The position numbers and the translations under genes are program-made. A stretch of 64,000 bases of DNA from Elusimicrobia bacterium CG_4_9_14_3_um_filter_62_55. Its GTDB lineage: Bacteria > Elusimicrobiota > Elusimicrobia > UBA1565. Of this stretch, positions 4,924 to 37,519 are shown piece by piece (the first letter of the stretch is position 1; each line of letters opens with the position of its first letter). The DNA lies in NCBI GenBank assembly GCA_002790095.1, contig PFUL01000054.1:9510-73509 (forward strand), given 5' to 3'. Under the pieces are notes generated by a model. It did not search any database. It worked only from the letters and a program-made list of their open reading frames with translations, and was not told the origin of the DNA.

Positions 4924-4995
4924 GCCGCGGTAGCTCAGTGGTAGAGCACTGGTCTGAAAAACCAGGTGTCGGTAGTTCGATCCTACCCCGCGGCA
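4924..4995 (+). tRNA. tRNA-Phe (anticodon GAA)
   Basis: Cloverleaf readable: acceptor GCCGCGG/CCGCGGC, D-arm GCTC/GAGC with AGTGGTA loop, anticodon stem CTGGT/ACCAG with loop CTGAAAA (GAA at 4956-4958), T-arm GGTAG-TTCGATC-CTACC, discriminator A. CCA is not encoded (followed by CCC). Confidence 0.9.
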
Positions 4996-10681: not shown

Positions 10682-10699
10682 CGCCTCGATTGTAGCGGA

Positions 10700-11884: not shown

Positions 11885-12012
11885 CTATCCTCCGGTTGGC
11901 ACAGGCGTGCCCCGAGGGACGCGCCCGATAGTCCCACCTCCGCCGACCCGAAGAGCCTACTAAATTTAGGCCCATTAGGCCCAGATGCCGTTTCCCCCTC
12001 CGGCCGAAATCG

Positions 12013-13014: not shown

Positions 13015-13161
13015 CGTAGCAATACTACATTAAATCGTTGTTGCGGTTCGGAACCGAACCCGGACGGCCGAAAGTCCCATTTCAGGGTGGGCCGATTGTC
13101 CTCGCCTCCAATCCCCGTTCGACTCAACGGCTCCCCGGATGGGAATGTGTAGGATGCGTCC

Positions 13162-24797: not shown

Positions 24798-24798
24798 C

Positions 24799-26121
24799 AT
24801 GGCCGGGGAAAAACCGCTTTCATCGTTGGTCCGCCGCATCCTCGACGAGTACGACGCCCGCGTCGGCCGCCTCGACGTGGACCTGCCGAAGGCCCCGTTT
24901 CCCGCAGCGCCGCGGACGGCGCCGCCTCCCCGCGCGAGGCCCCCCGAATCCGAACCGACGCCGCCGATGCGCGCTCCGAACGCCCGCGAGGTCCTTCCGC
25001 CGATTTCCCGCGTCGAACCCGGCCTGACGCCGCTCTCCGCGCCTAAGCCGAAGGTCCCCCCCGCCCCCGCGCCCCTTTTCGATCCGGAGCGCACCGCTCC
25101 GCCGCCTGCCGCTTCGCCCGCTCCGTCGTGGAGCGCCGGACTCGCGCAGACCCTTCAGATCGCTTTAGGCGTGTTTCTCGGCATGACGATGGCGAAATTC
25201 GTGCCGGACCGAATCGCACCGGCCCCCGCGGCGCCGGACGCGAATGGAAACATCGCGAAGGCGACGCCGCAACTTCCGGCGCGCCGCGAATCGCCTCCAG
25301 CAGCGGCCGAACCGGCCCGCGCCCCCGCCCCGGAACGGCGGACGCCGCGGCCCGCGCCGCCTGCGCCCAAGGAAGAACCGAAAGCCGTTGCGAAGACCGC
25401 GCGGACTCCCGCGCCGGAACCAAAGCCGGCGCCGATCTCGGAACCGAAGCCCGAACCGGCGGTCGTCTACGAACCCTCGATGCGCATTCCCTTCCCCGCG
25501 CAATGGCCCCGGGGACTGATTGTGCGCGGCTTTGAGATGATGTCGGTGGACCGCCGCAGCGGCAACATCATCGCGATCGACCCGCAGCGGACTCCGCCGC
25601 GGCGCGAAGTCCCCTTTCCTAACTTCTCCGCGGAAAGCCTCGCGCGCGACGCCTCCGGAGTCTGGAGCGTCGACTCGGCGCTTATGAAAATCCATCTTCA
25701 CGATCCGGAAAGCTTCGCGATTCTCGCCTCGTTTGACGCGCCGGGCGGCCGCCCGAGCGCGCTCGCCGCGGACGCGGACGGATTGTGGAGTGCCGATCGC
25801 GGCTCAGGCCGAATCTACCGGCACACCTTCGACGGGAAGAGGCTTTCGGTGACCGGGACCTATGCGATCGCGCAAGGAAATCCCATCGCGCTGCACCGCG
25901 CAGGGGGAGAGCTCTGGGTCTTCGACGGGACGACGCTCAAGGTCGGGCGTTACCGCATCGTCGGAGACGGACTCGCTCCCGCCGGCGCGGCTGATTTAGG
26001 CGCGCTGTTTCCGGACGCGACGAGCATCCGTTCGGCGACACTGGACGGTCGCTACCTTTGGGTCATGACCGAAAATCCGTCCTTTCTGCATCGCCTCGAC
26101 GCGCGGCGCTTGCAGTACTAG
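24799..26121 (+). CDS. proline-rich transmembrane protein with C-terminal beta-propeller-like domain
   Basis: Start MAGEKPLSS is 1 nt after the coiled-coil gene stop. Long Pro/Ala linker, one TM helix (LAQTLQIALGVFLGMTMAKFV), then repeated hWhxD blades (GVWSVD, GLWSAD, ELWVFD, YLWVMT). The 5' part of track ORF 24187..26121 is an out-of-frame read-through artefact. Confidence 0.6.
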   Translation: MAGEKPLSSLVRRILDEYDARVGRLDVDLPKAPFPAAPRTAPPPRARPPESEPTPPMRAPNAREVLPPISRVEPGLTPLSAPKPKVPPAPAPLFDPERTAPPPAASPAPSWSAGLAQTLQIALGVFLGMTMAKFVPDRIAPAPAAPDANGNIAKATPQLPARRESPPAAAEPARAPAPERRTPRPAPPAPKEEPKAVAKTARTPAPEPKPAPISEPKPEPAVVYEPSMRIPFPAQWPRGLIVRGFEMMSVDRRSGNIIAIDPQRTPPRREVPFPNFSAESLARDASGVWSVDSALMKIHLHDPESFAILASFDAPGGRPSALAADADGLWSADRGSGRIYRHTFDGKRLSVTGTYAIAQGNPIALHRAGGELWVFDGTTLKVGRYRIVGDGLAPAGAADLGALFPDATSIRSATLDGRYLWVMTENPSFLHRLDARRLQY

Positions 26122-26205
26122 CCTCCTGGAATTCTCAAAAACCTGTTCCGGCGCATGTTTCGCGCCGGCGAACGGCGCTATCCTGAACCGGACAGGAGAA
26201 AGAAC

Positions 26206-28482
26206 ATGAAAAAGCTTTGGGCCGCCTTCGCCGTCGTCACCCTCGGATCCTTCGCCGTTTTAGGTTGGATCGGCGTCGAGATATACCGGAATAAACCCCC
26301 CATTCCCATCGAGATCGTCGACGCCTCGGGCGCCGCGGTGTTCGAAAAGGACGCGGTTTCGACGGGACAAAACGTATGGCAAAAACTGGGCGGCATGCAG
26401 GTGGGCTCGATTTGGGGACACGGCGCCTACACCGCCCCCGACTGGACCGCCGACTGGCTGCACCGGGAACTCGTTTTCGTGCTCGACGGCTGGGCGAAGG
26501 CCGCCGGCGCGGCTTCCTACGAGGCGCTGCCTCAGCCGGAGCAGGCCGCGCTGCGCGCCCGACTCACCGAGTTATACCGGAACAACTCTTACGACCCGCG
26601 CGACGGCCGCTTGGTCCTGCCCTTGGAGCGCGCCAAGGCGGTGCGCGCGAATGCCGCGCATTTCTCCGATGTCTTCGAAAAAGGCCGCGCCGCCTATGCG
26701 ATTCCGGCGGGAGCCGTCGCGAACCCGGTCGACGCCGACCGCCTCTCGGCGTTTTTCTTCTGGTCGGCCTGGGCCGCGGCGGCGCACCGTCCCGGCACCG
26801 CCCATTCCTATACCAACGATTGGCCACATGAGCCGCTGATCGGGAATGTCCCGACGCCGGCGGCGATCCTGTGGACCGGCGTGAGCGTGTTCCTCCTGCT
26901 GGCGGGCATCGGCGCCATGGTCTGGTTCTACGCGCGGCCCGGCGCGGAAGCGGAGGAACACGCCACCCCGCCGACCGCCGATCCGCTGCTCGGGCTGAAG
27001 CTCAGCGGCTCGCAAAAGGCGACCTTCGCGTATTTCGGCGTAGCCTGCGCGCTGATGCTCGTTCAGGTGTTGGCCGGCATCGTCACGGCGCATTATGGAG
27101 TCGAAGGCGACGGCTTCTACGGCGTTCCGCTGGCCAACTGGCTGCCCTACGTCGTCACCCGCACCTGGCATGTGCAACTCGGGCTGTTCTGGATCGCCAC
27201 GTCCTGGCTGGCCGCGGGGCTGTTTCTCGCGCCGTTGATTCTCGGCCGCGAACCGAAGGGTCAGACCTTCGGCGTTCTCGCGCTGCTCGGCGCCTTGGTC
27301 GTCGTCGTCGTCGGATCGCTCGGCGGGGAATGGATGAGCGTGTTCCACAAGTTCGGCGACTCCTCCTGGTTCCTCTGGGGGCATCAGGGCTACGAATACG
27401 TCGAGTTGGGCCGGGTCTGGCAGATCGGCCTCTTCGCCGGGCTGCTGCTTTGGCTCGGCCTCGTCGCGCGCGGGGTTCTCCCTCCGCTGCTTGAGCGCCG
27501 CCCCGGCGCCTCCAAACTGCTCGGCCTGTTCACCGTCGCCGCCGTCGCGATCGCCGGCTTCTACGGCGCCGGCCTGACCTGGGGACAGCACACGCATATC
27601 AGCGTCGTGGAGTACTGGCGCTGGTGGGTCGTGCATCTCTGGGTCGAGGGCTTCTTCGAGGTGTTCGCGACCGTCGTCATCGCGTTCTTGTTCTCGAAGA
27701 TGGGGTTGATCCGCGACGGGGCCGCCGCCCGCGCGACGCTGGCGGCGTCGGTCCTCTTCCTCTCCGGCGGCATCGTCGGCACCGCGCATCATTTGTACTT
27801 CTCCGGCACGCCGACCTCCGCGCTCGCCTTCGGCTCGGTGTTCAGCGCGCTCGAGGTCGTGCCGCTGACCTTGATGGGCTACGAGGCCTGGCATCACCTG
27901 CGCGTGGAGGGCGCGGCGCCCTGGGTTCGCTCCTACAAGTGGCCGATCCGATTCTTCGTCGCGGTCGCGTTTTGGAACCTGGTCGGCGCGGGGCTCTTCG
28001 GGTTCATGATCAACCCGCCGGCCGCGCTCTACTACATGCAGGGGCTCAACACCACGCCGCTGCACGGGCACGCAGCCCTGTTCGGCGTGTACGGTATGCT
28101 CGGCATCGGCCTGATGCTGTTCTGCCTGCGCGCCGCCGACGCCGGGCGCCCGTGGAAGGACGGGTTGCTGCGCGTGGGCTTCTGGGGCCTCAACGGCGGG
28201 CTGATGGCGATGTGCCTGCTCAGCCTGCTGCCGCAAGGACTGATGCAGACGATCGCGTCGATCGAGCACGGCTACTGGTTCGCGCGCAGCGCGGACTTTC
28301 TGCAGACTCCTTTGATGTCGACCTTGCGCTGGATGCGCGTGCCCGGAGACGTCGTCTTCGCGACCGGCATCGGCGCGGTCGTCCTCTTCGTCGCCGGGCT
28401 GCTCGGCGGCTGGTCCTACGCCCGGCCGACGACGCTCACCCCCCTAAAGAATAAGCGTTCCCCCGAACCGGCGCTGCGCTGA
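26206..28482 (+). CDS. norZ: quinol-dependent nitric oxide reductase (qNor, single-subunit NorZ type)
   Basis: ~760-aa heme-copper oxidase superfamily protein with N-terminal extension and His ligand clusters (HHLYFSG, HGHAALFG). AGGAGA 6 nt upstream of ATG 26206. Confidence 0.85.
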   Translation: MKKLWAAFAVVTLGSFAVLGWIGVEIYRNKPPIPIEIVDASGAAVFEKDAVSTGQNVWQKLGGMQVGSIWGHGAYTAPDWTADWLHRELVFVLDGWAKAAGAASYEALPQPEQAALRARLTELYRNNSYDPRDGRLVLPLERAKAVRANAAHFSDVFEKGRAAYAIPAGAVANPVDADRLSAFFFWSAWAAAAHRPGTAHSYTNDWPHEPLIGNVPTPAAILWTGVSVFLLLAGIGAMVWFYARPGAEAEEHATPPTADPLLGLKLSGSQKATFAYFGVACALMLVQVLAGIVTAHYGVEGDGFYGVPLANWLPYVVTRTWHVQLGLFWIATSWLAAGLFLAPLILGREPKGQTFGVLALLGALVVVVVGSLGGEWMSVFHKFGDSSWFLWGHQGYEYVELGRVWQIGLFAGLLLWLGLVARGVLPPLLERRPGASKLLGLFTVAAVAIAGFYGAGLTWGQHTHISVVEYWRWWVVHLWVEGFFEVFATVVIAFLFSKMGLIRDGAAARATLAASVLFLSGGIVGTAHHLYFSGTPTSALAFGSVFSALEVVPLTLMGYEAWHHLRVEGAAPWVRSYKWPIRFFVAVAFWNLVGAGLFGFMINPPAALYYMQGLNTTPLHGHAALFGVYGMLGIGLMLFCLRAADAGRPWKDGLLRVGFWGLNGGLMAMCLLSLLPQGLMQTIASIEHGYWFARSADFLQTPLMSTLRWMRVPGDVVFATGIGAVVLFVAGLLGGWSYARPTTLTPLKNKRSPEPALR

Positions 28483-28503
28483 CGAACGCATCGCGCTATA
28501 CGA

Positions 28504-28536
28504 AATCCCCTCTCCCGAATGGGAGAGGGGATTTTT
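28504..28536. terminator. rho-independent terminator (AAATCCCCTCTCCC-GAAT-GGGAGAGGGGATTT + T-run)
   Basis: 14-bp stem, 4-nt loop, TTTTT. 22 nt after the norZ stop. A-run on the other strand serves the convergent hemerythrin genes. Confidence 0.65.
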
Positions 28537-28540
28537 GCAA

Positions 28541-29011
28541 TTAGAAAAGCGGCTCGATCCCGACGCGGCGCAGGGCGCGTCGACAGTACGCAAGCGCTTG
28601 GGGACCTTCCGAACACGCCCGAAGCGGAATCACCGGCGCGCATTCCAAGGACGGCTCTCCCTCGCAAAGGGAGTACAGCCCCCCGGGTTCTTCCTCGATT
28701 CGGTTGTGCGGCGCGAGGATCGCGCGGATCGTCGCAAGAATTCCGGGTGTTGGAACGGGGACCAACAGCGCAGTGAGCGCGCCATGATCGGAATGAAGCC
28801 TATCCAGGATTTTTCCGACCGAGGGAGCGGACAGCCGCACCTTCGGCATCAGGTCGTGCTCCTCGACCCACATATGCCGCAACAGGCCGGCCCGAAATTC
28901 GTCGTATAGGGGACCGGGGGCGAGGCCGGCCGCCTCGACGCGAGCGAGGATCGCGTCGAGGCGGCGATGATCGTCTTCCATCGCGCGTGAGACCGGCCCG
29001 GAGTCGTCCAT
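28541..29011 (-). CDS. hemerythrin-like (HHE cation-binding) domain protein
   Basis: H..LD...H..EE pattern (DHRRLDAIL, HMWVEEHDLMP, HSDHGAL). ATGA overlap with the upstream hemerythrin gene. Confidence 0.55.
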   Translation of the reverse strand: MDDSGPVSRAMEDDHRRLDAILARVEAAGLAPGPLYDEFRAGLLRHMWVEEHDLMPKVRLSAPSVGKILDRLHSDHGALTALLVPVPTPGILATIRAILAPHNRIEEEPGGLYSLCEGEPSLECAPVIPLRACSEGPQALAYCRRALRRVGIEPLF

Positions 29012-29499
29012 CAGTGGGCGTGTCCCGCCCCGCCGCAGCAGACCGCGTAGCGTTCTTCGGGGAGGGCGTCCATCGACGCCTTGATCCCGCGGATCGCGTC
29101 GGCGTCTAAGCCCGCGTCGATGGCGGGATAGAGGATCTGCTCTTCCTTCATGTTATGCGCCTTCAGCACGTCGAGCAGCGCCTTCTCATCGAGATCGCTC
29201 TCCGGATCGGCAACGCGCACTTTGTCGTGGATGGCGTCGAGATACTTCTTGATCATCAGATGCTCTTGGCGCATTATTTCGGTCGGCCCGGAGTTCGTCA
29301 TCCCCGTGCGCTCCTCGAACAGCGGGAACAGGATTTCCTCTTCCCAGACGATGTGGCGCGACAGGCCGGTGATGAACGCCTTGAATTTCAGCTTCGCCGC
29401 GGCTGCGTCTTGGCGCTTAAGGCCCTGAAACTCCGTAAAAAGCCCGTCGAGCCGGTCGTGGTCTTCCCCGAAGTACTGCTTGATGCTGGTCATAGTCAT
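29011..29499 (-). CDS. hemerythrin-like domain protein
   Basis: HIVWEEEILFPLFE, EHLMIKKYLDAIH and HNMKEEQILYP are canonical hemerythrin HHE repeats. Confidence 0.75.
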   Translation of the reverse strand: MTMTSIKQYFGEDHDRLDGLFTEFQGLKRQDAAAAKLKFKAFITGLSRHIVWEEEILFPLFEERTGMTNSGPTEIMRQEHLMIKKYLDAIHDKVRVADPESDLDEKALLDVLKAHNMKEEQILYPAIDAGLDADAIRGIKASMDALPEERYAVCCGGAGHAH

Positions 29500-29525
29500 G
29501 CCGTCCTCCCGGCGGGTTGCGCCTT

Positions 29526-29560
29526 GATTATAGGATAGCCTCCCCCGCCTTGGAAAAGTA
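29526..29560 (-). promoter_or_regulatory. candidate promoter for hemerythrin operon: perfect TATAAT -10 on minus strand (29526-29531) with TTCCAA 17 nt upstream
   Basis: rc reads ...TTCCAAggcgggggaggctatccTATAATcaaggcgcaacccgccGGGAGGAcggcATG. -10 perfect, -35 weak. Confidence 0.35.
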
Positions 29561-29589
29561 TGCGCCTGAACAGGATTTTGGAAATCAGC

Positions 29590-30243
29590 TTATGCGGCTT
29601 CGCAGAGGGCCTGCAGCGCGGCGGCATCAAGTACCGAGACCCGCTTCCACCCGGACGCGATCCATTCCTTCTTGCGGAAGTCCACAAGGGTTCGAATGGC
29701 GGTCTCGGTGGTGCAGCCGGCGAGTTCGGCGATTTCCTCGCGGCGGATCGGAATCTCGCCGCCGATCGAATTCGAAAGCGTCAGCAGCACCCGCGCGACG
29801 CGAACCTCCACGGGCTCCCCCGCCAGCGAGCGCAGCGTCTGCGCCTGACGCAGATGGTCGCCGATCGAGGCGTAGACCACCTTCGAGAATTCGGGGAAAT
29901 CCGTCATCAGAGACGCGAACAACGCCGCCGGAATGCGGTACGCCTCGCAGTCCTGCAGCGGGAGAGCGCTGACCGGGTAGGGCTTCTTGTCCATCACCGC
30001 GATCATCCCGAACAATTGCCCGGGGGCGATGATCTCCATCGACGCGGCTTCCATGCGCGGAGAATACTTGACCGCCTTGACCAGGCCCGATTTCAGCACG
30101 AAGACCGCGTTCGCCGGATCGCCCTCTTGGAACACGGGTTCGTTTTTACCGTATCCCTTCGCATGCACCGAGCGAGACAGTCCTTCCAGCGTCTCTTGAG
30201 GGAGGCGCTTGAACGCCGGCAAACGCGCAAGGAAGAAATCCAT
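29590..30243 (-). CDS. Crp/Fnr-family transcriptional regulator (Dnr/NnrR-like candidate)
   Basis: cNMP-binding beta-roll plus C-terminal HTH (EIAELAGCTTETAIRTLVDFRKKEWI). Start at Met 30243 gives a TGATG overlap with the upstream gene stop. Sits between NO-reductase/hemerythrin genes. Confidence 0.8.
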   Translation of the reverse strand: MDFFLARLPAFKRLPQETLEGLSRSVHAKGYGKNEPVFQEGDPANAVFVLKSGLVKAVKYSPRMEAASMEIIAPGQLFGMIAVMDKKPYPVSALPLQDCEAYRIPAALFASLMTDFPEFSKVVYASIGDHLRQAQTLRSLAGEPVEVRVARVLLTLSNSIGGEIPIRREEIAELAGCTTETAIRTLVDFRKKEWIASGWKRVSVLDAAALQALCEAA

Positions 30244-31166
30244 CAAGGCCGCCAGCCTGCGGAGTCCATCGCCGCGCGCGCCTGCTCCAGCATCCATTCG
30301 CCTACGGCCGGATCGGGCAGCAATCCGCGGCCGTCCATCACCAGTTCGAGATCCTTCAACATGTCCGCCTGCGGGCCGAAGCCCGAAAGCCGGTACGGGA
30401 TCGCGAGCACCTTGCGTCCGGCGTCGCGCTCGCGATTAACGAATAAGCGGATCTCCCGCCGCGCCAAAGCCCGCTTCTCGGGCCAGTCGTCGCGCATCGT
30501 CGCGGCCTGGACCGTATGAAAGGGCAAGGCCCGGCGCAGCGCTTCGACCGCCGGCATCATCGACTCCCGCCATGCGGCGTCCGCCGCGTCGTCGCCGACC
30601 CCGTGTCCCAGTAGAAGGACGGACTCGACCGACGGATCCGCGCTCAGTTCGCGCGCGCGTTTAACGAGAATCCGCCCGCCGATCGGGCCGTCGAGCAGTC
30701 CCTCGCGGGTCAGCACGAAGCGGCTTCGCGACTCGACGCGCCACAACGGCATCGCGTCCGGTCCGCGCTCCATCATCCGGCTCATGTCGTGGCCGCTCAT
30801 ATCCCAATGGGCCGGGCGCGGTCCCGCGCCCGGGGCGGTCCCTAGAATCTTCTCGGTCCTGATCAGAAAGCTGTCCCCGCTCAAAAACAGGCGGACCACC
30901 GCGATGCGCCGCACGCCGCGGCGCTCCAAGAGGGAAACCGCCTTCTGCAGCGTGTCCGCGCGCGCCATCCCGAGCGCAAGTTCGGTCGGGAACGCCGCGC
31001 GAAGGGGCTCCAGCGACTCCTCGGCCAATTGATTCCACTCGGGCTCTCCGCCGTGCGCCATCACCAGCACGCCGATGCGGCCTTCCTTCGGGACGCCGGC
31101 GCAGGCGCAAAGGCCGGTCAGCGCCGCGATCATCGCGATCCGCTTCATGGCCGCGGAGTCTAGCAT
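30243..31166 (-). CDS. lipoprotein with two CbiX/SirB-like (class II chelatase fold) half-domains
   Basis: Lipobox-like MIAALTGLCACAG. GVLVMAHGGEPEWN and LLLGHGVGDD resemble CbiX-type HG motifs. Confidence 0.45.
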   Translation of the reverse strand: MLDSAAMKRIAMIAALTGLCACAGVPKEGRIGVLVMAHGGEPEWNQLAEESLEPLRAAFPTELALGMARADTLQKAVSLLERRGVRRIAVVRLFLSGDSFLIRTEKILGTAPGAGPRPAHWDMSGHDMSRMMERGPDAMPLWRVESRSRFVLTREGLLDGPIGGRILVKRARELSADPSVESVLLLGHGVGDDAADAAWRESMMPAVEALRRALPFHTVQAATMRDDWPEKRALARREIRLFVNRERDAGRKVLAIPYRLSGFGPQADMLKDLELVMDGRGLLPDPAVGEWMLEQARAAMDSAGWRP

Positions 31167-31167: not shown

Positions 31168-31560
31168 TCACGCCCTCCTCTCCCGAAGCCGGTCGAAGAA
31201 GGCGGCGAACCTCAGCGTTTTGCCGCCCTCGGACTCGATCTCACGCGCCAGACCCCCGTCCTCGGTGACGACGACCACGCCCTTGCCGGAACGAATCCGG
31301 TGCCGCGCGGACCCTAAGATCGCGTCGTCGGCATCCCCATCCAACGCGAAGCGCACCCGCACGGGAGCGGACACCGGAAAAACTCGCCGGCGGGGACCGT
31401 CGAAAAAAATCTCGATGCGAACGCTGCCCTCGAGCGGTTCCGCCAGGGCGTTGACGCGTTCGAGAAACGCCTCGTGGCGGGCCTCGTCCATCTCCGGGAA
31501 ACGCGGGTCGTAATCGCGGCGGCGCACCGCGTTGGAACCGTCGACCAAGTACAGCCTCAC
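31168..31560 (-). CDS. NYN-domain (YacP/Rae1-like) predicted ribonuclease
   Basis: MRLYLVDGSNAV...VVVVTEDGGLAREI matches the YacP-like NYN (PIN-like) fold. 4-nt overlap with the upstream helicase. Confidence 0.7.
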   Translation of the reverse strand: MRLYLVDGSNAVRRRDYDPRFPEMDEARHEAFLERVNALAEPLEGSVRIEIFFDGPRRRVFPVSAPVRVRFALDGDADDAILGSARHRIRSGKGVVVVTEDGGLAREIESEGGKTLRFAAFFDRLRERRA

Positions 31561-33608
31561 GCGGCCTTCCTGATCGGCGGATCGGAGAGACGCGGGATCA
31601 CCATCCGAACGCTCCCATCATCAAAGCGCACCTCGTTGACCCACTCGGGCCGCCCGTCCACGGTCTCTTGCAGCTTCGCCGACACGATGCCGGCGCCGAA
31701 CTCCGCGTGTTCCACGACGTCACCGGGCTCGAACGCGACCGAGAGCGCGGACCCGTCCGCGGGAACGGATTCAACCGGAACGGGAACCGGCACTTTCGAG
31801 CCGTCGACTTCGCACGCGGCGTCGAGGATGCGCTTGAGAATAGCAAGCCCCGCGGCGGCGGGAGAGTCCGGGTTTCCCTCATCGGCGGCCTCGACGGCGC
31901 GGCGGAGCGCTTTGCCCGAACCCAAAATCACGACCTTCGTGCGCGCCCGGCTGATCGCGACGTTGAGGCGGTTCGGATTGAAGAGAAAACCCGCCAGCCG
32001 GGCCATGTAGGACAACTGCGAACTCGTCAGAGAAATAACGACCAGTTCCCGTTCCTGCCCCTGAAAGCGTTCGACGGTCGCGACGGATAGCCCTCTTCGC
32101 CGTCCGCAGAGAAAGCGAATTCGATTGCATTGCGTGCGGTAAGGAGAGATTACGCCGATCTCCTCCGCGGAGACCCCCAGACGCGCAGCCTCGGCGACGA
32201 TCGCGGCTGCCCAACGGGCCTCCGGCTCGCACTTGGAACGCTGATCCTCGTGGGGAACGTCCACGAAGATCAGCGGCTCCTCCGGATCGAAAACGGTCTC
32301 AAATCCGGAACCCGGCGCGCGTCCGAGCGAAAGGCGGCGCGCCCCCGCCTCCGCCGTCGGAGAAAGCGCTCCGTCGTAAAAGCAATCGCTGACAACGGCG
32401 CAGAGAGAATCGTTCAGTCGGCGCGTTTCGTCGATCATCGGAGGATCGGCGTAGACCTCGCGCACGAGTTCGATCGCCGAACGGCTCGCGGCCGGGTCCG
32501 AGTCCTCGCCTCCTCCCGACTGAACGACCGGGGGAAGCTGGGCGTCGTCACCGATAAAAACCGTCTTCTCAGCCAACAGCCGCGCCCCGAGAGCGAGCAC
32601 CAGCGGGGCTTGTCCGGCCTCGTCGAAAAGGACCACATCGAAGGCGGGCGATCCGCCGAGCTCGGCCGCGACATTGCGCGCGGCGTAAATCGTCGCCCCT
32701 GCAACGAAGGGCTTCTTGGTTTTCGGAAGCCGGTAGACAGGACGGATGCCGGCCGGCAGCCCCTCGTTGCGGCCCCTCGAACCTCCGAGCTTCAAGAAAC
32801 CGTCCGCGAGAAGCCCCCGCAGACGCGGTTCTTTGTCGAGGAATCGCTTCCCCACGAAGTAGGTTTCCCGCAGCGCGTGATGGATCGCGTTGTGCGCGAC
32901 AGCCGTGACGAGCACGCGCAGACCCTTTTCCACCGCGAAGTGCAGCGCCAGACGCGCCAACAAGTGCGTCTTGCCCGACCCCGGAGGGCCCTGAACCGCG
33001 TACCATCGCGGAGCCCCCGCCGCCCCCGCGAACGCCGCGGCCATGGAGGGCGGAAGTCCCTCGCCGTACACGGACTCCGGAGCGGCCGCGCCTGCTCCGG
33101 GAGCGTCGTCCCCGTCGAGCCATCCGGACAGACCCTCCTCTTCCGCTTCCCTCAGAATCCCCAGCTGGACGTCGAGAAGATCGAAGATGTCCTCGTCGAG
33201 AACCCACGGTTCCGAGCTTTCAAGAATGGATTCGTCCTCGAGCTGTCCGGATAGCCTCAGTTCGTATTTCTTGCCGTCGTAGCGGTCCTCGATGAGTTCG
33301 AGCGTCGCGACGGCCTCGCGCGGATTTCCCCGGCTGAGCCGCAAGCGCGTTCCCGGGCGAAAGCGCGAGTCGTTTCGGCGGCTGTGAAACACGAAAATTC
33401 TTCTTCCTCCCTGGGCTTCGACCCCCGACGAGAAGGCTTGATCGATCGCGAGTCCGGCCTTGACGCGATCTTCGACCGGAGATTCATAGAGGGCTTCTCG
33501 CCCTGAATTCTGGGCGTGGTGTTCCTGCTCCAGGAATCGCCGCAGCGCGGCGATCGAATCGGTGACGGGTTCCCAGCCCTGGCCGTGTGCGAGCGTTTCG
33601 TTTTCCAA
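31557..33608 (-). CDS. Upf1/DNA2-like superfamily I helicase (AAA_11/AAA_12) with ~200-aa N-terminal and ~90-aa C-terminal extensions
   Basis: Walker A GPPGSGKTH, Walker B VLFDEAGQ, motifs VERFQGQERELVVISL and LNVAISRARTKVVILG. Start 7 nt after the rlmI stop. Confidence 0.8.
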   Translation of the reverse strand: MENETLAHGQGWEPVTDSIAALRRFLEQEHHAQNSGREALYESPVEDRVKAGLAIDQAFSSGVEAQGGRRIFVFHSRRNDSRFRPGTRLRLSRGNPREAVATLELIEDRYDGKKYELRLSGQLEDESILESSEPWVLDEDIFDLLDVQLGILREAEEEGLSGWLDGDDAPGAGAAAPESVYGEGLPPSMAAAFAGAAGAPRWYAVQGPPGSGKTHLLARLALHFAVEKGLRVLVTAVAHNAIHHALRETYFVGKRFLDKEPRLRGLLADGFLKLGGSRGRNEGLPAGIRPVYRLPKTKKPFVAGATIYAARNVAAELGGSPAFDVVLFDEAGQAPLVLALGARLLAEKTVFIGDDAQLPPVVQSGGGEDSDPAASRSAIELVREVYADPPMIDETRRLNDSLCAVVSDCFYDGALSPTAEAGARRLSLGRAPGSGFETVFDPEEPLIFVDVPHEDQRSKCEPEARWAAAIVAEAARLGVSAEEIGVISPYRTQCNRIRFLCGRRRGLSVATVERFQGQERELVVISLTSSQLSYMARLAGFLFNPNRLNVAISRARTKVVILGSGKALRRAVEAADEGNPDSPAAAGLAILKRILDAACEVDGSKVPVPVPVESVPADGSALSVAFEPGDVVEHAEFGAGIVSAKLQETVDGRPEWVNEVRFDDGSVRMVIPRLSDPPIRKAA

Positions 33609-33614: not shown

Positions 33615-34829
33615 TCAGCCGATTTCGAGCAGCGCGAAATGTAGGTATTCGGTCTCGGGCATCGTCAGAAGCACGGGGTGGTCCATCGCCTGGCCGCGCA
33701 GTTCCAGCAGGCGAACGGTCTTCTGAGCTTTCGCGGCGGCCTCGCGCAGCATCCCGATAAACGCGCCGCGCGAGACGTGATGAGAACAGGTGCTCGTCGC
33801 CACGATTCCTCCGCGCCGCAAAAGACGAAACGCGTTCGCGTTGAGCTTCACATAGGACCGCATCGCCTTCGTCAGGTGCTTTTTGGAAGGCACGAGACTC
33901 GGCGGATCGACGAAAACGACGTCGGGTTGGAAGTTCCGGCGGGTGTCGGAAAACTCCGCAAGCAGTTTTTCCGCGTCGTCGACCCGGAATTCACATTTCC
34001 CTTCGAGCCCGTTGAGTTTCGCGCTTTCGATCGCGGCGTCGATCGCGCGCTGAGAACTGTCGATTCCGAACACGCGCAGCGCGCCGTGCTTCGCGGCGTT
34101 CAACGCGAACGCCCCGGAGTGACAGTAGAGGTCCAGGATGGTTTTCCCCTTCACGAACGGCCAAATCGCGCGTCGGTTTTCCCGTTGGTCGAAGTAGAAT
34201 CCCGTTTTCTGCGCGCCCTCCGGATCGACCTTGAATTTAAGGCCGTTCTCTTCGATCACCAAATCCTCCGGCAAAGATCCGAACACCGGACCGCTCTTTC
34301 CGGAAAGGCCTTCGAGCGCGCGGGAGGGATGATCGTTCTTCTGATAGATCGCCGTCGGATTCAACAACCCTCTGAGCGCGGCGATCAGCGGCTCGATCAG
34401 ATTTTCCATTCCCGCGGATAAGACCTGGAGCACGAGCACGTCGTTGAAGCGGTCGACGATAAGTCCGGGGAGATCGTCGCTCTCTCCGAAGCAGAGACGA
34501 TAGGCCGTCGTATTTTCGCCGAGAAAACGCGTTCGCCGGTTCAGACACGCCTCGAGCCGGTCCCGCAGGAACGCGGCGTCGACCGGAGCGGGCTCCCGGG
34601 AAAGCAGTCGGAAGGCGATCAGGCTTTTCGGATTGAAAAATCCCATCCCGAGGGTTTTCCCTTTGGAGGAGAACAACACCGCGAGCGCACCCGGCGCCGC
34701 GTCGGTCGGCGCCTCCTGCAGTTCGTTGGAGAACACCCAGCGGTGTCCGGCGAGCAGGCGATCCTCCTCTCCGGACTTGAGCTTCAGCGCAACGAGATCG
34801 GATACGGCGGCTTTGGGTTCATCGGACAT
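33615..34829 (-). CDS. rlmI: 23S rRNA (cytosine1962-C5)-methyltransferase RlmI-type, PUA + class I SAM MTase
   Basis: N-terminal PUA-like, central LDLYCHSGAFAL, DPPS motif and catalytic Cys (TSTCSHHV), as in RlmI/YccW. Confidence 0.8.
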   Translation of the reverse strand: MSDEPKAAVSDLVALKLKSGEEDRLLAGHRWVFSNELQEAPTDAAPGALAVLFSSKGKTLGMGFFNPKSLIAFRLLSREPAPVDAAFLRDRLEACLNRRTRFLGENTTAYRLCFGESDDLPGLIVDRFNDVLVLQVLSAGMENLIEPLIAALRGLLNPTAIYQKNDHPSRALEGLSGKSGPVFGSLPEDLVIEENGLKFKVDPEGAQKTGFYFDQRENRRAIWPFVKGKTILDLYCHSGAFALNAAKHGALRVFGIDSSQRAIDAAIESAKLNGLEGKCEFRVDDAEKLLAEFSDTRRNFQPDVVFVDPPSLVPSKKHLTKAMRSYVKLNANAFRLLRRGGIVATSTCSHHVSRGAFIGMLREAAAKAQKTVRLLELRGQAMDHPVLLTMPETEYLHFALLEIG

Positions 34830-35622
34830 AGACGGGATCTCCCGGTTGGATGCGGTATTGGGCCGCGAAATTCCCGTCGCGGACCGACAACTCGACGAGT
34901 CCGTAGGACCCGACGAGAGCGAGCGGCGTCCCTGGAGGGACCGACGCGTACGTCTTCTTCACAGATCCGAGACGCACGCCCCCGGCCCAAACGGCTTTGC
35001 CCTTGCCGACCTGCGCGGCCTTCAGCGTCGTCACGCAGTTGCCGAAGGCGTCCACATGCAGCACGCCGCGGGCGGGAACCTTTTTGAGACGCCGACGCGG
35101 GCGCGCCTTGGGTCCCAATCGTGAGGGATCGAGCCCCGAAACGAGTGCGGCCGCGACGGGGGCGAAAACGTCCCGACCGTGGAAGGTCCTGCTGATCTCA
35201 GGAAGAAACAGTCGGGTGTTTGTTACGCGACGGAACTCGAGCGGCTTGTCCTCGCCCGCCAGCGCGTCGAGCAGCCCGTTGTCCGGGGCCAGGAACTGTC
35301 GCTTGCGCCCGCGCGCCCACAATACGGAACGGCCCGTGCCGACGCCGGGATCGACGACGGAGACGAACAGAGTCCCCTCGGGGAAGAACCGCGCCGAGGC
35401 CGCCAGAAAAAACGCCGCGGCGCCGACGCGCTGAGGCGGCAGCTCGTGGCACAGATCGACGACCGGAACCCCCGGAGCGCGGGAGAGAAGGACCCCCTTC
35501 ATCATCCCCACGTACGGATCGCGAAGCCCGAAATCCGTAAGTAGGACGACGGGCGCCGGCCTCGACCGCCTTCCAACGGCGTCCGGAGGCGGCACTTCCT
35601 CGCGATAGCGCTCGGTCGTCAC
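34819..35622 (-). CDS. SAM hydroxide adenosyltransferase family protein (DUF62)
   Basis: VVLLTDFGLRDPYVGMMKGV N-terminus and overall DUF62 architecture. Confidence 0.8.
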   Translation of the reverse strand: MTTERYREEVPPPDAVGRRSRPAPVVLLTDFGLRDPYVGMMKGVLLSRAPGVPVVDLCHELPPQRVGAAAFFLAASARFFPEGTLFVSVVDPGVGTGRSVLWARGRKRQFLAPDNGLLDALAGEDKPLEFRRVTNTRLFLPEISRTFHGRDVFAPVAAALVSGLDPSRLGPKARPRRRLKKVPARGVLHVDAFGNCVTTLKAAQVGKGKAVWAGGVRLGSVKKTYASVPPGTPLALVGSYGLVELSVRDGNFAAQYRIQPGDPVYVR

Positions 35623-36932
35623 AGGACTCCGGCCCGCCGCATGATTTGGGGGATCGAGCGGCCGTAATGCGAGAGATCAAATAAGCGTTCGAGTTCGGCC
35701 GCGCTGAGCTTGCGGCGCAGCGCAGGATCCGCGCCCAGCGTCGCCTGGAAGGATTTTCCCGTTTTCCAGGTTTCCATCGCGTTGCGCTGGACGATATCGT
35801 ACGCCTCCATGCGGCCGAGCCCCTTATCGATCAGTTCCAGCAGAACGCGCTGGCTGAACACCAACCCGTGTGAACGCTCCAGGTTTCGCTTCATGTTTTT
35901 CGGGTATACGTTCAGACCTTCGAGAACCCGCGCGAAACGGTGCAGCATGAAGTGAAGCAGGACCGTCGCATCCGGGAGCGTCACCCGCTCAACGGAGGAG
36001 TGGGTGATGTCGCGCTCGTGCCACAACGCGACGTTCTCGAGCATCGGCACGGTGAACCCGCGGATCACGCGGGCCAAGCCGCAGAGATTCTCGCACAGCA
36101 CGGGGTTTCTCTTGTGCGGCATCGCCGAGGAACCCTTCTGTCCGCTGCCGAACGGTTCTTCGGCTTCGAGGACTTCAGTACGCTGCAGATGGCGGATTTC
36201 GGTCGCAAAACGTTCGATCGCGGCCGCTGAAAGCGCGATGGCCTGAAATAAGTCCGCGTGGCGGTCCCGTGGAACGACCTGGGTTGAGACGGGCTCCGCC
36301 TTCAGACCGCAGGCCCGAAGCACCCGCGCTTCGAATGCCGGTGGAAAGTGCGCGCAGGTTCCGACCGCCCCGGAAAGATTGCCGTAAGCGATTTCGCGTC
36401 CGACGCGTTCAAGCCGGGTGATGTTGCGCAGCGCCTCGGCGTGCCAACCCGCCATCTTCAATCCGAACGGAATCGGCTCGGCGTGGACGCCGTGCGTACG
36501 CCCGACCATCCAGGTGTTCTGATGGCGCCGCGCGAGTTTCTTCAGCGCTTTCACGACCGGCTTCCAGGCCGCGATCAAAAGCGTGGTTGCGTCGACCAAC
36601 TGCATCGCGAGCGCCGTATCGAGGACGTCGGATGAGGTCAGCCCGAAATGCAGATACTGGACGACCTTCGGGGCCTTCCCCTTGAGCGCGTCGGAAACGA
36701 CTTGAAGCATCGCGACCACATCGTGGGCGCTCTTCTCCTCCTTCCTGCGAACCTTCTCCGCGAGAGGCCCGCCCTCGATGATCCGCCGCAATTCGGCCAC
36801 TTCACGGCGCGGAATCTTTCGAGACGGCGCGAGGGCCTCAAGCCACGCGAGTTCGACGATGAGCATCCGCTTAATGCGGGCCTCCGGCCCCCAAAGGGCC
36901 GCCATTTCCGGACGCGAGTAGCGCTCGATCAC
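35619..36932 (-). CDS. purB: adenylosuccinate lyase
   Basis: Fumarase/ASL signature GSSAMPHKRNP. N-terminus VIERYSRPEM aligns with the PurB start. GTG start at 36932 with GGGAGG 5 nt upstream. The ORF-track ATG at 36998 would add 22 unaligned residues. Confidence 0.9.
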   Translation of the reverse strand: MIERYSRPEMAALWGPEARIKRMLIVELAWLEALAPSRKIPRREVAELRRIIEGGPLAEKVRRKEEKSAHDVVAMLQVVSDALKGKAPKVVQYLHFGLTSSDVLDTALAMQLVDATTLLIAAWKPVVKALKKLARRHQNTWMVGRTHGVHAEPIPFGLKMAGWHAEALRNITRLERVGREIAYGNLSGAVGTCAHFPPAFEARVLRACGLKAEPVSTQVVPRDRHADLFQAIALSAAAIERFATEIRHLQRTEVLEAEEPFGSGQKGSSAMPHKRNPVLCENLCGLARVIRGFTVPMLENVALWHERDITHSSVERVTLPDATVLLHFMLHRFARVLEGLNVYPKNMKRNLERSHGLVFSQRVLLELIDKGLGRMEAYDIVQRNAMETWKTGKSFQATLGADPALRRKLSAAELERLFDLSHYGRSIPQIMRRAGVL

Positions 36933-37519
36933 GCGCGCCTCCCGATCCCGTTCTCGTAGGGGGTGGACAACGCGACCCGCCTGCGGCAGGCGTCGCACTG
37001 GTCCGGCGGGAAAACCGGGATCGGAAGAGTCACGAGCGCGCGCACCGGCACGCCGAGGGAGAGAGCCCCGGTTGAGCGGTCCACGACCGCGCCGACTCCC
37101 ATCACCTTCGCGCCGTGCTCGGCCGCGGTATGGATCAATTCTCCCGTGCTTCGTCCCGCCATCAGCACGTCCTCGATCACGAGAACCCGCTCGTTGCGCT
37201 GCAGACGAAAATGCGGTCGGAGCCCCATCACACCGCCGAGCCTCTCAAAGAAAATCGAACGGCACTTTCGTGCGTGAGCGACCTGCTGTCCGAGGACCAA
37301 GCCCCCCATCCCGGAAGAAACCACGACGTCGGCCTCACCGGGAAATTGGGCGCTCAGCGATTTCGCAAGCTTCTGCGCCAAGTTCGGAAACTGGAGAACC
37401 CTTTCCGGCTGAACGAATTTCGAGGTGTGCAATCCGGAGGGAAGCCGATAGTGACCTTCGAGAATCGCTCCGTGTTCCTGCAAAATTCCGACGACGTCGA
37501 GTTTAGGGATACGGCTCAT
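36929..37519 (-). CDS. pyrE: orotate phosphoribosyltransferase-like (type I PRTase)
   Basis: PRPP-binding motif VLVIEDVLMAGRS. Size and N-terminus are consistent with PyrE-type PRTases. Confidence 0.7.
   Translation of the reverse strand: MSRIPKLDVVGILQEHGAILEGHYRLPSGLHTSKFVQPERVLQFPNLAQKLAKSLSAQFPGEADVVVSSGMGGLVLGQQVAHARKCRSIFFERLGGVMGLRPHFRLQRNERVLVIEDVLMAGRSTGELIHTAAEHGAKVMGVGAVVDRSTGALSLGVPVRALVTLPIPVFPPDQCDACRRRVALSTPYENGIGRRA

What the first reader, a model, noticed from the sequence alone, without database searches (positions are those of the whole stretch)
31168..33608. Translationally coupled Upf1-like SF1 helicase + YacP/Rae1-like NYN RNase embedded in an rRNA-methyltransferase operon
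A 683-aa AAA_11/AAA_12 (Upf1/DNA2-like) helicase with unassigned N-terminal (~200 aa) and C-terminal (~90 aa) extensions overlaps the downstream NYN-domain gene by 4 nt and starts 7 nt after rlmI. In Bacillus the YacP (Rae1) NYN endoribonuclease is ribosome/A-site dependent and is encoded next to the rRNA methyltransferase rlmB. Here a YacP-like NYN is again next to an rRNA methyltransferase (rlmI) but partnered with a eukaryote-NMD-like Upf1-family helicase. The pairing suggests an RNA-surveillance or RNA-targeting defence (Mokosh-like: RNA helicase plus nuclease) module. I am not aware of a described NYN + Upf1-like two-gene system.
Basis: partly seen in the sequence, partly recalled or inferred. 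Interest (0 to 1): 0.65.

Follow-up and report, generated by a model that had tools for sequence, protein, structure and literature searches.

The report
Dna2/Upf1-like helicase plus small NYN nuclease
An uncultured Elusimicrobiota lineage carries a conserved, vertically inherited pair of genes, a Dna2/Upf1-type helicase with a UvrD-style Tudor adaptor domain and a small Rae1-like nuclease, and the pair sits where related genomes keep DNA-break-repair genes, so it looks like an undescribed genome-maintenance module and not an anti-phage system.

Summary
A 683-aa AAA_11/AAA_12 SF1B helicase (31557-33608, minus strand) overlaps a 130-aa YacP-like NYN gene (31168-31560) by 4 nt and starts 7 nt after rlmI.

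The "unassigned" ends of the helicase are now assigned. The N-terminus is the canonical stalk plus 1B beta-barrel of Upf1/IGHMBP2/Dna2 helicases. The C-terminus is a UvrD/PcrA/CarD-type Tudor domain.

The pair is adjacent in 17 of 22 Elusimicrobiota loci. It lies in a deeply conserved housekeeping block: asmA-pyrE-purB-SAM_HAT-rlmI-HEL-NYN.

- No homolog of the NYN protein was found in the viral or plasmid collections.
- There is no PLD nuclease and no kinase domain, so this is not Mokosh.
- rlmI is only the upstream neighbour. In related lineages the slot after rlmI holds a RecB-family/Cas4-like exonuclease and AddB-AddA, and HEL-NYN lies between them.
- The best sequence match of the helicase is DNA2.

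Best reading (confidence about 0.4): a split Dna2-like helicase-nuclease module for genome maintenance, possibly tethered to RNA polymerase.

Rivals: RNA surveillance (Upf1 plus Rae1-like), which is not excluded, and two independent genes that are adjacent only by descent.

Verdict: new variant of a known kind, moderate interest.

The parts
31557..33608 (-). SF1B (Upf1/IGHMBP2/Dna2-like) helicase gene, 683 aa, TTG start
33099..33608 (-). Helicase residues 1-170: stalk helix, 1B-type beta-barrel, stalk helix (the 'unassigned' N-terminus)
32967..32990 (-). Walker A motif GPPGSGKT (residues 207-214)
   Evidence: Read from the sequence. Invariant in alignments A1 and A4.
31899..33056 (-). RecA1-RecA2 motor core (about residues 185-570), with DEAGQ (329-333), GDDAQLPP (353-360), TVERFQGQER (511-520) and VAISRAR (550-556)
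   Evidence: Pfam AAA_11/AAA_12/AAA_30. Invariant columns. PDB profile alignment to DNA2 covers query 171-568.
31560..31733 (-). C-terminal Tudor/SH3-like domain (about residues 626-683) of the UvrD/PcrA/CarD type
   Evidence: AF2 strands 631-670, pLDDT 84-96. Profile against PDB hits the UvrD CTD (7egt, 0.0044; 4c2t, 0.0064), CarD RIDs and the PcrA CTD. Pfam CarD_TRCF_RID E 0.077. hhalign places it on E. coli UvrD 666-712 (E 0.018). H634, F637, R668 and V670 align with the positions of PcrA H681, W684, K712 and L714, which are needed for RNAP binding (PMC5397179).
31168..31560 (-). Short YacP/Rae1-fold NYN nuclease gene, 130 aa, GTG start
   Evidence: Pfam NYN_YacP in 16 of 16 family members (best 2.3e-6). 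AF2 pLDDT 89.5. Foldseek top three hits are B. subtilis Rae1 (E 3e-5 to 4e-4, TMq 0.63-0.69), then the SMG6 and Nmd4 PIN domains and ExoIX. D7, N10, D54, D78 and D101 are invariant even in distant stand-alone relatives. The protein lacks the roughly 40-residue C-terminal extension of YacP (profile positions 2-128 of 166).
31557..31560 (-). GTGA overlap of the helicase stop codon and the NYN start codon
   Evidence: The same 4-nt overlap occurs in L093, L094, L098 and L100. Other loci have gaps of 3-60 nt.
31565..31571 (-). SD-like AGGAAGG 4 nt upstream of the NYN start, inside the helicase 3' end
   Evidence: Read from the sequence. Inference only.
31495..31512 (-). NYN loop YDPRFP (residues 17-22), nearly invariant (D18, R20 and P22 invariant) in the helicase-linked clade and absent from stand-alone relatives
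   Evidence: It lies in a lower-confidence loop of the model (pLDDT 70-75). Its role as a possible partner-binding element is an inference.
33615..34829 (-). rlmI-type 23S rRNA m5C methyltransferase: upstream neighbour, context only
   Evidence: Pfam PUA_3 plus Methyltrans_SAM. NCBIfam 23S C1962 methyltransferase models, below the equivalog cut-offs. In three sampled lineages that lack HEL/NYN at this locus, it is followed by a RecB-family exonuclease.

Best explanation
The two genes form a lineage-specific, vertically inherited helicase-nuclease module of the genome-maintenance toolkit of one Elusimicrobiota clade. It amounts to a split, remodelled Dna2-like enzyme.

Shown:
- The helicase is an intact SF1B motor with the stalk/1B-barrel architecture of Dna2/IGHMBP2/Upf1, plus a C-terminal Tudor domain of the UvrD/PcrA/CarD kind.
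- The partner is a small NYN (PIN-like) protein that keeps the four invariant acidic residues expected of a NYN active site.
- The pair occupies the chromosomal slot that in related genomes holds a RecB-family (Cas4-like, Fe-S type cysteine motif) exonuclease and, in one sampled locus, AddB-AddA.

Inferred mechanism:
- The Tudor domain docks the helicase on RNA polymerase, or on another repair partner, as in PcrA/UvrD.
- The motor loads on a 5' single-stranded tail and moves 5'->3'. That tail could be a DNA flap or end, or the RNA of an R-loop.
- The NYN nuclease cuts the displaced strand.
- This would clear flaps or RNA:DNA hybrids at sites where transcription, replication and break repair meet. 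It would supply the 5'->3' motor that AddAB lacks.

The pair is not a phage-defence system, and its position next to rlmI is incidental.
For: 1. Vertical, core-genome character.
- The order asmA-pyrE-purB-SAM_HAT-rlmI-HEL-NYN recurs in at least 12 loci at 46-82% protein identity.
- HEL and NYN distances track purB distances (r 0.63-0.85).
- HEL and NYN diverge at about the same rate as rlmI (mean distances 0.66 and 0.67 against 0.60).
- No homolog of the NYN protein was found in plasmids or viral contigs.

2. DNA-repair slot.
- Lineages lacking the pair have rlmI-PDDEXK(418 aa)-AddB-AddA (L105) or rlmI-PDDEXK (L106, L107).
- A sister clade has rlmI-PDDEXK-HEL-NYN-Transgly with overlapping junctions (L098, L100).
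- Other members have HEL-NYN-AddB(-AddA) with a NYN/AddB overlap (L091, L085, L002, L092), or AddBA 3 kb downstream (L093).
- The composite order is rlmI-[PDDEXK]-[HEL-NYN]-[AddB-AddA]-Transgly.

3. Dna2 is the best sequence match (6.5e-36) and the top Foldseek hit. Fused PDDEXK-Dna2-AAA_11/12 bacterial proteins are among the homologs (P0119, P0120). The characterised bacterial DNA2-like enzyme Bad is a 5'->3' DNA motor (PMC7430649).

4. The Tudor domain has the signature residues of UvrD/PcrA, which are DNA-repair helicases that bind RNAP.

5. Distant homologs of the helicase pair with DNA-type partners: UvrD-like helicases, an RNase-H-fold protein and HsdM.
Against: - The nearest characterised relative of the NYN protein is Rae1, an mRNA endonuclease acting at stalled ribosomes. 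NYN proteins are generally RNases.
- The whole block is inherited as a unit, so adjacency to repair genes, like adjacency to rlmI, could be passive.
- In the window itself neither the PDDEXK gene nor AddAB is present within 64 kb.
- The Tudor similarity rests on individually weak statistics (E 0.002-0.08). The domain is missing in several lineages (P0030, P0037, P0040, P0041, P0045).
- NYN is separated from HEL by 3.8-5 kb in two genomes and is absent in one (L082, L002, L096).
- Mirror-tree correlation does not single out HEL-NYN over HEL-purB.
- Nothing has been tested biochemically.
Confidence: 0.4

Rival explanations
1. RNA surveillance. The NYN protein is this clade's Rae1 equivalent and cuts mRNA at stalled or collided ribosomes, or processes rRNA. 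The Upf1-like helicase remodels or strips the RNA or RNP for it. This would be a bacterial analogue of Upf1 with the PIN nucleases SMG6 and Nmd4.
For: - Rae1/YacP is the top structural match of the NYN protein. SMG6 and Nmd4 PIN domains follow, and Nmd4 was crystallised bound to the Upf1 helicase domain.
- The acidic residues corresponding to a NYN active site are intact.
- The pair is conserved.
- rlmI lies upstream.
Against: - There is no CH domain or other Upf2/ribosome-binding module. The N-terminus is only the stalk and barrel.
- The NYN protein lacks the C-terminal extension of YacP.
- The rlmI link is not general (L002, L101, L102).
- The genomic slot belongs to DNA-repair genes.
- The C-terminal domain resembles RNAP/repair adaptors, not ribosome binders.
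- DNA2 is the best sequence match.
Confidence: 0.2
2. No joint function. A housekeeping helicase and a housekeeping YacP-like nuclease are neighbours only because the whole block is inherited as a unit in compact genomes. The 4-nt overlap reflects general gene packing.
For: - Overlapping junctions are the norm in this cluster.
- rlmI-HEL adjacency is about as conserved as HEL-NYN adjacency.
- NYN relatives exist as stand-alone genes (L101, L102).
- NYN stays with AddB, not with HEL, when the order breaks (L002, L092).
- L096 keeps HEL without NYN.
- The mirror-tree signal is not specific to the pair.
Against: - HEL and NYN have about the same narrow phyletic spread (47 and 42 clusters). The neighbouring PDDEXK gene is far more widespread (270 or more clusters).
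- Lineages with the same backbone but without HEL also lack NYN at this locus (L105-L107). This suggests the two arrived or were kept as a cassette.
- The helicase-linked NYN clade has its own nearly invariant YDPRFP loop.
- Adjacency holds in 17 of 22 loci, although the sequence downstream of NYN is highly variable.
Confidence: 0.25
3. An anti-phage or RNA-targeting defence pair (Mokosh-like helicase plus nuclease).
For: - PADLOC and NCBIfam models for MkoA (3.9e-52), MkoC, DpdJ, PLuB and ProA match the helicase core.
- Helicase-nuclease pairs are common in defence systems.
- One distant homolog sits next to a type I methylase gene (L009).
Against: - All those matches cover only the generic AAA_11/AAA_12 core and lie far below the curated cut-offs.
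- There is no PLD nuclease and no kinase domain.
- The NYN protein has no PADLOC hit.
- The locus is in a fixed position in a housekeeping block across deep divergence. Its neighbours are purB, pyrE, rlmI and asmA, and inheritance is vertical.
- No homolog of the NYN protein was found in viral or plasmid collections.
Confidence: 0.05

Closest known systems
Dna2 (eukaryotes) and Bad (Geobacillus), DNA2-like nuclease-helicases
   Same: - The SF1B AAA_11/AAA_12 motor with a stalk/barrel domain is shared. Dna2 is the best sequence hit (6.5e-36) and the top Foldseek hit.
- A PD-(D/E)XK nuclease with a Cas4/Dna2-type cysteine motif is encoded directly upstream, with overlap, in the sister clade.
- Bad is a 5'->3' ssDNA motor (PMC7430649).
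   Different: - There is no fused nuclease domain.
- In the window lineage the PD-(D/E)XK gene is absent from the locus, and the only adjacent nuclease is a NYN protein.
- The helicase has an extra C-terminal Tudor domain.
PcrA/UvrD C-terminal Tudor domain (and CarD/Mfd RID)
   Same: - A five-strand Tudor/SH3-like fold sits at the extreme C-terminus of an SF1 helicase behind a flexible linker.
- The V-x-H-x-x-(F/Y)-G-x-G-x-V motif and a basic-x-aliphatic pair lie at the positions of PcrA H681, W684, K712 and L714.
   Different: - It is attached to an SF1B (5'->3') motor instead of an SF1A (3'->5') motor.
- Sequence similarity is marginal.
- RNAP binding is untested.
- Several orthologs have lost the domain.
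Rae1/YacP of Bacillus subtilis
   Same: The NYN fold and the acidic residues at the conserved NYN positions are shared, and Rae1 is the best structural match.
   Different: - Sequence identity is 17-18%.
- The score is below the Pfam cut-off for the window protein.
- The roughly 40-residue C-terminal extension is missing.
- The phylum and the gene context differ: there is no rlmB or sigH neighbourhood.
- Ribosome dependence is unknown.
Upf1 with the PIN proteins SMG6 and Nmd4 (eukaryotic NMD)
   Same: A Upf1-type helicase is combined with a PIN-like nuclease-fold partner. Both sets of structures appear among the top matches.
   Different: - There is no CH domain and no Upf2/Upf3 or ribosome-linked components.
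- The resemblance is at fold level only.
- The genomic context points to DNA repair.
Mokosh (MkoA/MkoB, MkoC)
   Same: The helicase core is of the COG1112/Upf1-like kind.
   Different: - There is no PLD nuclease and no Ser/Thr kinase domain.
- Only the C-terminal third of the MkoA model is matched.
- The locus is a core-genome position, not a defence island.
RecBCD/AddAB end-resection machines
   Same: The pair is next to AddB-AddA in several genomes. An SF1B motor such as RecD complements a 3'->5' motor in RecBCD.
   Different: - There is no evidence of a physical complex.
- AddAB is not adjacent in the window.
- The helicase is not a RecD/RecD2 family member (TIGR01448 E 7e-5 only).

Membership tests
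Upf1-like SF1B helicases (AAA_11/AAA_12; Upf1, IGHMBP2, Sen1, Dna2) | Intact Walker A/B and motifs III, V and VI of the AAA_11/AAA_12 core | tested here: met
   Pfam AAA_12 at 1.2e-29 and AAA_11 at 5.8e-14. The motifs are invariant in 76 sequences.
Upf1-like SF1B helicases (AAA_11/AAA_12; Upf1, IGHMBP2, Sen1, Dna2) | Stalk helices plus a 1B beta-barrel N-terminal to RecA1 | tested here: met
Upf1-like SF1B helicases (AAA_11/AAA_12; Upf1, IGHMBP2, Sen1, Dna2) | 5'->3' translocation on single-stranded nucleic acid | not testable with these tools
   Needs biochemistry.
Dna2/Bad nuclease-helicase | PD-(D/E)XK nuclease domain with an Fe-S cluster on the same polypeptide | tested here: not met
   No such domain is present in the 683-aa protein. 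A separate 396-427-aa PDDEXK_1 gene with a C...CxxCx5C motif precedes the helicase only in L098 and L100.
Dna2/Bad nuclease-helicase | Helicase domain closest to DNA2 among solved structures | tested here: met
Mokosh defence system | PLD-family nuclease, as a separate gene or fused | tested here: not met
   Pfam and PADLOC scans of the two proteins, and Pfam scans of rlmI and the CbiX-like neighbour, show no PLD. Definition.
Mokosh defence system | Ser/Thr kinase domain on the helicase protein (type I), or full-length match to MkoA/MkoC | tested here: not met
   The MkoA model is matched only at positions 784-1096 of 1112. There is no kinase domain.
Mokosh defence system | Variable, island-like genomic context | tested here: not met
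   The locus has a fixed position in a housekeeping block in 12 or more loci. No homolog of the NYN protein was found in viral or plasmid collections.
Rae1/YacP NYN endoribonuclease | NYN fold with the conserved acidic residues at the active-site positions | tested here: met
   Foldseek top hits are 5mq9 and 5mq8. D7, D54, D78 and D101 are invariant.
Rae1/YacP NYN endoribonuclease | Score above the Pfam NYN_YacP gathering threshold | tested here: not met
   The window protein scores 17.1 bits against a cut-off of 24.6. All 16 family members hit the model, best E 2.3e-6.
Rae1/YacP NYN endoribonuclease | Full-length architecture (about 160-175 aa with a C-terminal extension) | tested here: not met
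   The protein is 130 aa and matches profile positions 2-128 of 166. Longer YacP-like proteins carry an extension that this family lacks.
Rae1/YacP NYN endoribonuclease | Translation/ribosome-dependent mRNA cleavage | not testable with these tools
   Needs in vivo or in vitro assays (see PMC12407103).
PcrA/UvrD-type Tudor RNAP-interaction domain | Five-strand Tudor-like fold at the extreme C-terminus after a disordered linker | tested here: met
   AF2 shows a disordered stretch at 614-622 followed by strands at 631-670.
PcrA/UvrD-type Tudor RNAP-interaction domain | Significant sequence relationship to UvrD/PcrA CTD or CarD/Mfd RID | tested here: inconclusive
   Hits are consistent but weak: UvrD CTD 0.0044 and 0.0064, CarD 0.08-1; Pfam RID 0.077; hhalign on E. 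coli UvrD 666-712, E 0.018.
PcrA/UvrD-type Tudor RNAP-interaction domain | Residues needed for RNAP binding (PcrA H681, W684, K712, L714) | tested here: met
   H634 is invariant, position 637 is F or Y, R668 is invariant, and position 670 is V, I or L. Correspondence to the PcrA residue numbers goes through E. coli UvrD and is inferred.
PcrA/UvrD-type Tudor RNAP-interaction domain | Binding to the RNA polymerase beta subunit | not testable with these tools
   Needs pull-down or structure.

The most novel reading that the evidence does not exclude
The helicase is an RNA-polymerase-tethered, Sen1/Upf1-like 5'->3' RNA or RNA:DNA helicase, and the Rae1-fold NYN protein is its dedicated RNase. Together they would form a bacterial co-transcriptional machine that removes R-loops or terminates or clears stalled transcription complexes and degrades the released RNA. 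This would be a prokaryotic counterpart of Sen1/SETX or Upf1-SMG6, built from an SF1B motor that has captured the RNAP-binding Tudor domain of UvrD/PcrA.
Probability: 0.15. Interest if true: 0.75.

Novelty: new variant of a known kind. Interest (0 to 1): 0.45.

Why it matters
Helicase-nuclease modules for genome maintenance are well known (Dna2, AddAB, RecBCD, UvrD). Three things appear to be undescribed here:
- a Upf1/Dna2-type 5'->3' motor carrying a UvrD/PcrA-type Tudor adaptor;
- its stable pairing with a Rae1-fold NYN nuclease;
- the insertion of this pair between a RecB-family exonuclease and AddAB.

If the pair works together, it would show how a deep-branching, mostly uncultured phylum rebuilt Dna2-like or Sen1-like functions from separate parts. 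It would also give a simple two-protein system for asking whether NYN nucleases can act in DNA or R-loop metabolism. The case also shows that adjacency to an rRNA methyltransferase, or similarity to Mokosh models, is not evidence of function.

Tried and rejected
Only 3 of the 80 loci were Elusimicrobiota. Contexts were instead gathered from the metagenome scan and 12 contig look-ups.
- A profile of the NYN family against PDB sequences found nothing meaningful. Structure was needed.
- Pfam on the isolated N-terminal 200 residues found nothing. The region was assigned by structure only.
- The afdb50 fold library was unavailable.
- The promoter/terminator scan gave counts equal to the shuffled controls, so operon boundaries remain unknown. 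Rfam found only one tRNA in the window.
- Mirror-tree test. The HEL-NYN correlation (r 0.76, Mantel p 2e-4) looked specific against rlmI and SAM_HAT, but HEL-purB is as high (0.71-0.85). I read it as evidence of vertical descent, not of co-evolution.
- The hypothesis that loss of the Tudor domain goes with loss of NYN was rejected. L098 lacks the Tudor domain but keeps NYN.
- The NYN-rlm link seen in Bacillus was rejected as a general rule.
- Mokosh, Nhi, Dpd, PLuB and ProA membership was rejected. Only the helicase core is matched, far below the cut-offs.
- A literature search for the four terms NYN, Upf1-like, bacteria and helicase together returned nothing.

Full report
**1. What is there**

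On the minus strand of the window lies a run of co-directional genes:
- an AsmA-like gene, 37516-39864
- a phosphoribosyltransferase, 36929-37519
- purB, 35619-36998
- a SAM hydroxide adenosyltransferase (SAM_HAT), 34819-35622
- an rlmI-type 23S rRNA m5C methyltransferase, 33615-34829
- the helicase (HEL), 31557-33608, 683 aa
- the NYN gene, 31168-31560, 130 aa
- a CbiX-like lipoprotein, a Crp regulator and two hemerythrins

. HEL starts with TTG 7 nt after the last base of rlmI. NYN starts with GTG inside the HEL stop codon (GTGA), a 4-nt overlap. Both starts coincide with the N-termini of homologs.

One caveat applies. Overlaps of 4-11 nt also join purB/SAM_HAT, SAM_HAT/rlmI and asmA/pyrE, so the overlap reflects general gene packing and is not a special mark of coupling. 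The window comes from Elusimicrobiota. It has 63% G+C, and every close homolog that carries an organism name is from that phylum.

**2. The helicase**

Pfam finds AAA_12 (1.2e-29) and AAA_11 (5.8e-14). Walker A (GPPGSGKT), DEAGQ, GDDAQLPP, TVERFQGQER and SRAR are invariant in 76 homologs, so the motor should be active.

The AlphaFold model is confident (pLDDT 91.3).

The N-terminal 170 residues form a long helix, a six-strand barrel and a second helix. This is the stalk/1B arrangement of Upf1-family helicases.
- Foldseek ranks Dna2, IGHMBP2, Upf1, SETX/Sen1 and ZNFX1 at the top.
- At sequence level the best solved relative is DNA2 (6.5e-36), followed by IGHMBP2 and UPF1.

The C-terminal extension is a helical linker, a disordered stretch (614-622) and a small beta domain (strands 631-670). 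Four lines of evidence point to a UvrD/PcrA/CarD-type Tudor domain:
- A profile of this region hits the C-terminal Tudor domains of UvrD (E 0.0044 and 0.0064) and PcrA, and several CarD RNAP-interaction domains.
- Pfam gives CarD_TRCF_RID at E 0.077.
- hhalign places it exactly on E. coli UvrD residues 666-712.
- H634, F/Y637, R668 and V/I670 occupy the positions of PcrA H681, W684, K712 and L714, whose mutation weakens RNAP binding (PMC5397179).

Each statistic is weak, but they agree. I treat the fold as shown and RNAP binding as inferred. The domain is missing from several orthologs.

**3. The NYN protein**

The window protein scores below Pfam's NYN_YacP cut-off (E 0.0056). All 16 family members tested hit that model (best 2.3e-6).

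The model (pLDDT 89.5) finds B. subtilis Rae1/YacP as its three best PDB matches (E 3e-5 to 4e-4, TMq 0.63-0.69). SMG6 and Nmd4 PIN domains and the flap nuclease ExoIX follow. D7, N10, D54, D78 and D101 are invariant, including in remote relatives.

The protein is a short form. It lacks the roughly 40-residue C-terminal extension of YacP.

An exhaustive profile search found:
- 1122 relatives at E <= 1e-3;
- 41 at E <= 1e-10;
- only 3 representative clusters at E <= 1e-30.

Slightly more distant short NYN proteins stand alone, with no helicase and no rlm gene nearby: L101 (another Elusimicrobiota MAG) and L102. The helicase-linked clade has a nearly invariant YDPRFP loop that those relatives lack.

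**4. Conservation of the pair**

| Loci found through | Number | NYN and HEL directly adjacent | Exceptions |
|---|---|---|---|
| the helicase | 10 independent loci | 7 | NYN 5.2 kb away in L002; absent in L096; undetermined in L099 |
| NYN | 12 loci | 10 | separated by 3.8 kb in L082; helicase beyond the 3.4 kb available in L092 |

. The NYN profile finds nothing near the 34%-identity helicase homologs of other phyla. Those homologs sit instead next to UvrD-like helicases, an RNase-H-fold protein or HsdM. The pair is therefore conserved, but confined to one Elusimicrobiota clade.

**5. Context**

The order asmA-pyrE-purB-SAM_HAT-rlmI-HEL-NYN recurs across the whole range of divergence. HEL and NYN distances track those of purB. 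No homolog of the NYN protein was found in plasmid or viral collections. This is vertical, core-genome behaviour, not that of a defence island.

The decisive finding came from the sister lineages.
- In L098 and L100 a 396-427-aa PD-(D/E)XK protein with a Cas4/Dna2/AddB-type cysteine motif is wedged, with overlaps, between rlmI and HEL.
- That exonuclease family is much more widespread in the phylum (270 or more clusters).
- In lineages without HEL/NYN at this locus it directly follows rlmI. In L105 it is followed by AddB-AddA.
- In L091, L085, L002 and L092, NYN is directly followed by, and overlaps, AddB(-AddA). In L093 AddBA lies 3 kb downstream. A transglycosylase gene closes the block.

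The composite order is rlmI-[RecB-family exonuclease]-[HEL-NYN]-[AddB-AddA]-Transgly. The pair thus sits inside a DNA-break-repair slot, and rlmI is merely the gene upstream of that slot. In the window lineage the exonuclease and AddAB have left the locus. A CbiX-like gene and an NO-response cluster follow NYN there, with the transglycosylase about 10 kb further on.

**6. Interpretation**

The best-supported reading is a split, remodelled Dna2-like helicase-nuclease module for genome maintenance. It would combine a 5'->3' SF1B motor (compare the bacterial DNA2-like enzyme Bad, PMC7430649), a Tudor adaptor like that of the repair helicases UvrD/PcrA, and a PIN-like nuclease. It would act on 5'-tailed DNA or on RNA:DNA hybrids where transcription, replication and repair collide, and may supply the 5'->3' motor that AddAB lacks.

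The architecture, the conservation and the context are shown. The substrate, the polarity, RNAP binding and a HEL-NYN complex are inferred. Confidence is about 0.4.

The rivals:
- **RNA surveillance (about 0.2).** This keeps real support from the Rae1 and Upf1/IGHMBP2 similarities. It is weakened by the absence of any ribosome- or Upf2-binding module, by the truncated NYN, and by the repair context.
- **Independent genes adjacent by descent (about 0.25).** This is favoured by the passive-synteny arguments. It is disfavoured by the matching narrow distribution of the two genes, their joint absence from backbone-sharing lineages, and the clade-specific NYN loop.
- **Defence (about 0.05).** Mokosh requires a PLD nuclease, with a kinase domain in type I. 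Neither is present, and the MkoA, DpdJ, PLuB and ProA matches cover only the generic core.

**7. Novelty and score**

I found no description of this pairing, or of a Upf1/Dna2-type helicase with a UvrD-type Tudor domain. All the parts are known folds, the module type (helicase plus nuclease in genome maintenance) is familiar, and the function is untested. I rate it a new variant of a known kind, interest 0.45.

The most novel reading not excluded is an RNAP-tethered Sen1/Upf1-like RNA helicase with its own RNase. I give it a probability of about 0.15. It would deserve an interest of about 0.75 if true.

Noticed in passing
L105 6001-13257; L106 6001-7257; L107 8001-9257; L098 4725-6008; L100 3490-4680: A roughly 418-aa RecB-family/Cas4-like PD-(D/E)XK exonuclease directly follows rlmI in many Elusimicrobiota. 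It has a Cys...CxxCx5C motif and a C-terminal coiled-coil tail. More than 270 protein clusters were found. In L105 it precedes AddB-AddA. It looks like a conserved third component of the AddAB locus in this phylum.
   Followed up: partly
L004 9977-13746; L011 9376-13259; L012 about 10000-13665; L097 8001-11765: The 34%-identity relatives of the helicase in Chloroflexota and in cultured Massilia species are tightly linked to a roughly 660-aa UvrD-like (SF1A) helicase, with overlap in L011. These relatives keep the N-terminal barrel but have no Tudor domain. This is an apparently uncharacterised SF1B+SF1A two-helicase pair. In L013 the partner is an RNase_H_2-superfamily protein, and in L009 a type I HsdM.
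   Followed up: partly
window 21501-24797 (+): A 1098-aa protein made almost entirely of E/R/Q/A-rich coiled coil has no Pfam match. It accounts for the strong AT skew (0.40) at 22-24 kb.
   Followed up: partly
window 30243-31166 (-): A CbiX-like lipoprotein gene (weak Pfam CbiX hit, signal-peptide-like start) begins 2 nt after the NYN stop. Its homolog also follows NYN directly in L094 and L095, and lies 2.4 kb downstream in L001.
   Followed up: partly
window 26155-30297: A probable nitric-oxide response cluster: a qNOR-type NorB (cytochrome-c-like domain plus COX1), two hemerythrin-domain proteins and a Crp/FNR regulator. It is inserted between NYN and the transglycosylase gene that closes the block in other genomes.
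   Followed up: no
window 34819-35622 (-): A SAM hydroxide adenosyltransferase (SAM_HAT_N/C) gene overlaps the start of the SAM-dependent methyltransferase rlmI. The pair is conserved in nearly all related loci.
   Followed up: no
L082 6213-10000; L002 12010-17171; L099 7866-9708: Where HEL and NYN are separated, the inserted DNA carries unrelated genes: a GT2 glycosyltransferase, a large membrane protein and an FGGY sugar kinase. In L002 and L092, NYN stays fused to the start of AddB, not to the helicase.
   Followed up: partly
window 24187-26121 (+) and many overlapping ORFs in 26-39 kb: The high G+C content produces long spurious ORFs on both strands, for example a 644-aa Pro/Arg-rich ORF at 24187-26121 and a 565-aa ORF antisense to norB. 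These should not be taken as genes.
   Followed up: no
window 4924-4995 (+): A single tRNA gene is the only Rfam match in the window.
   Followed up: no
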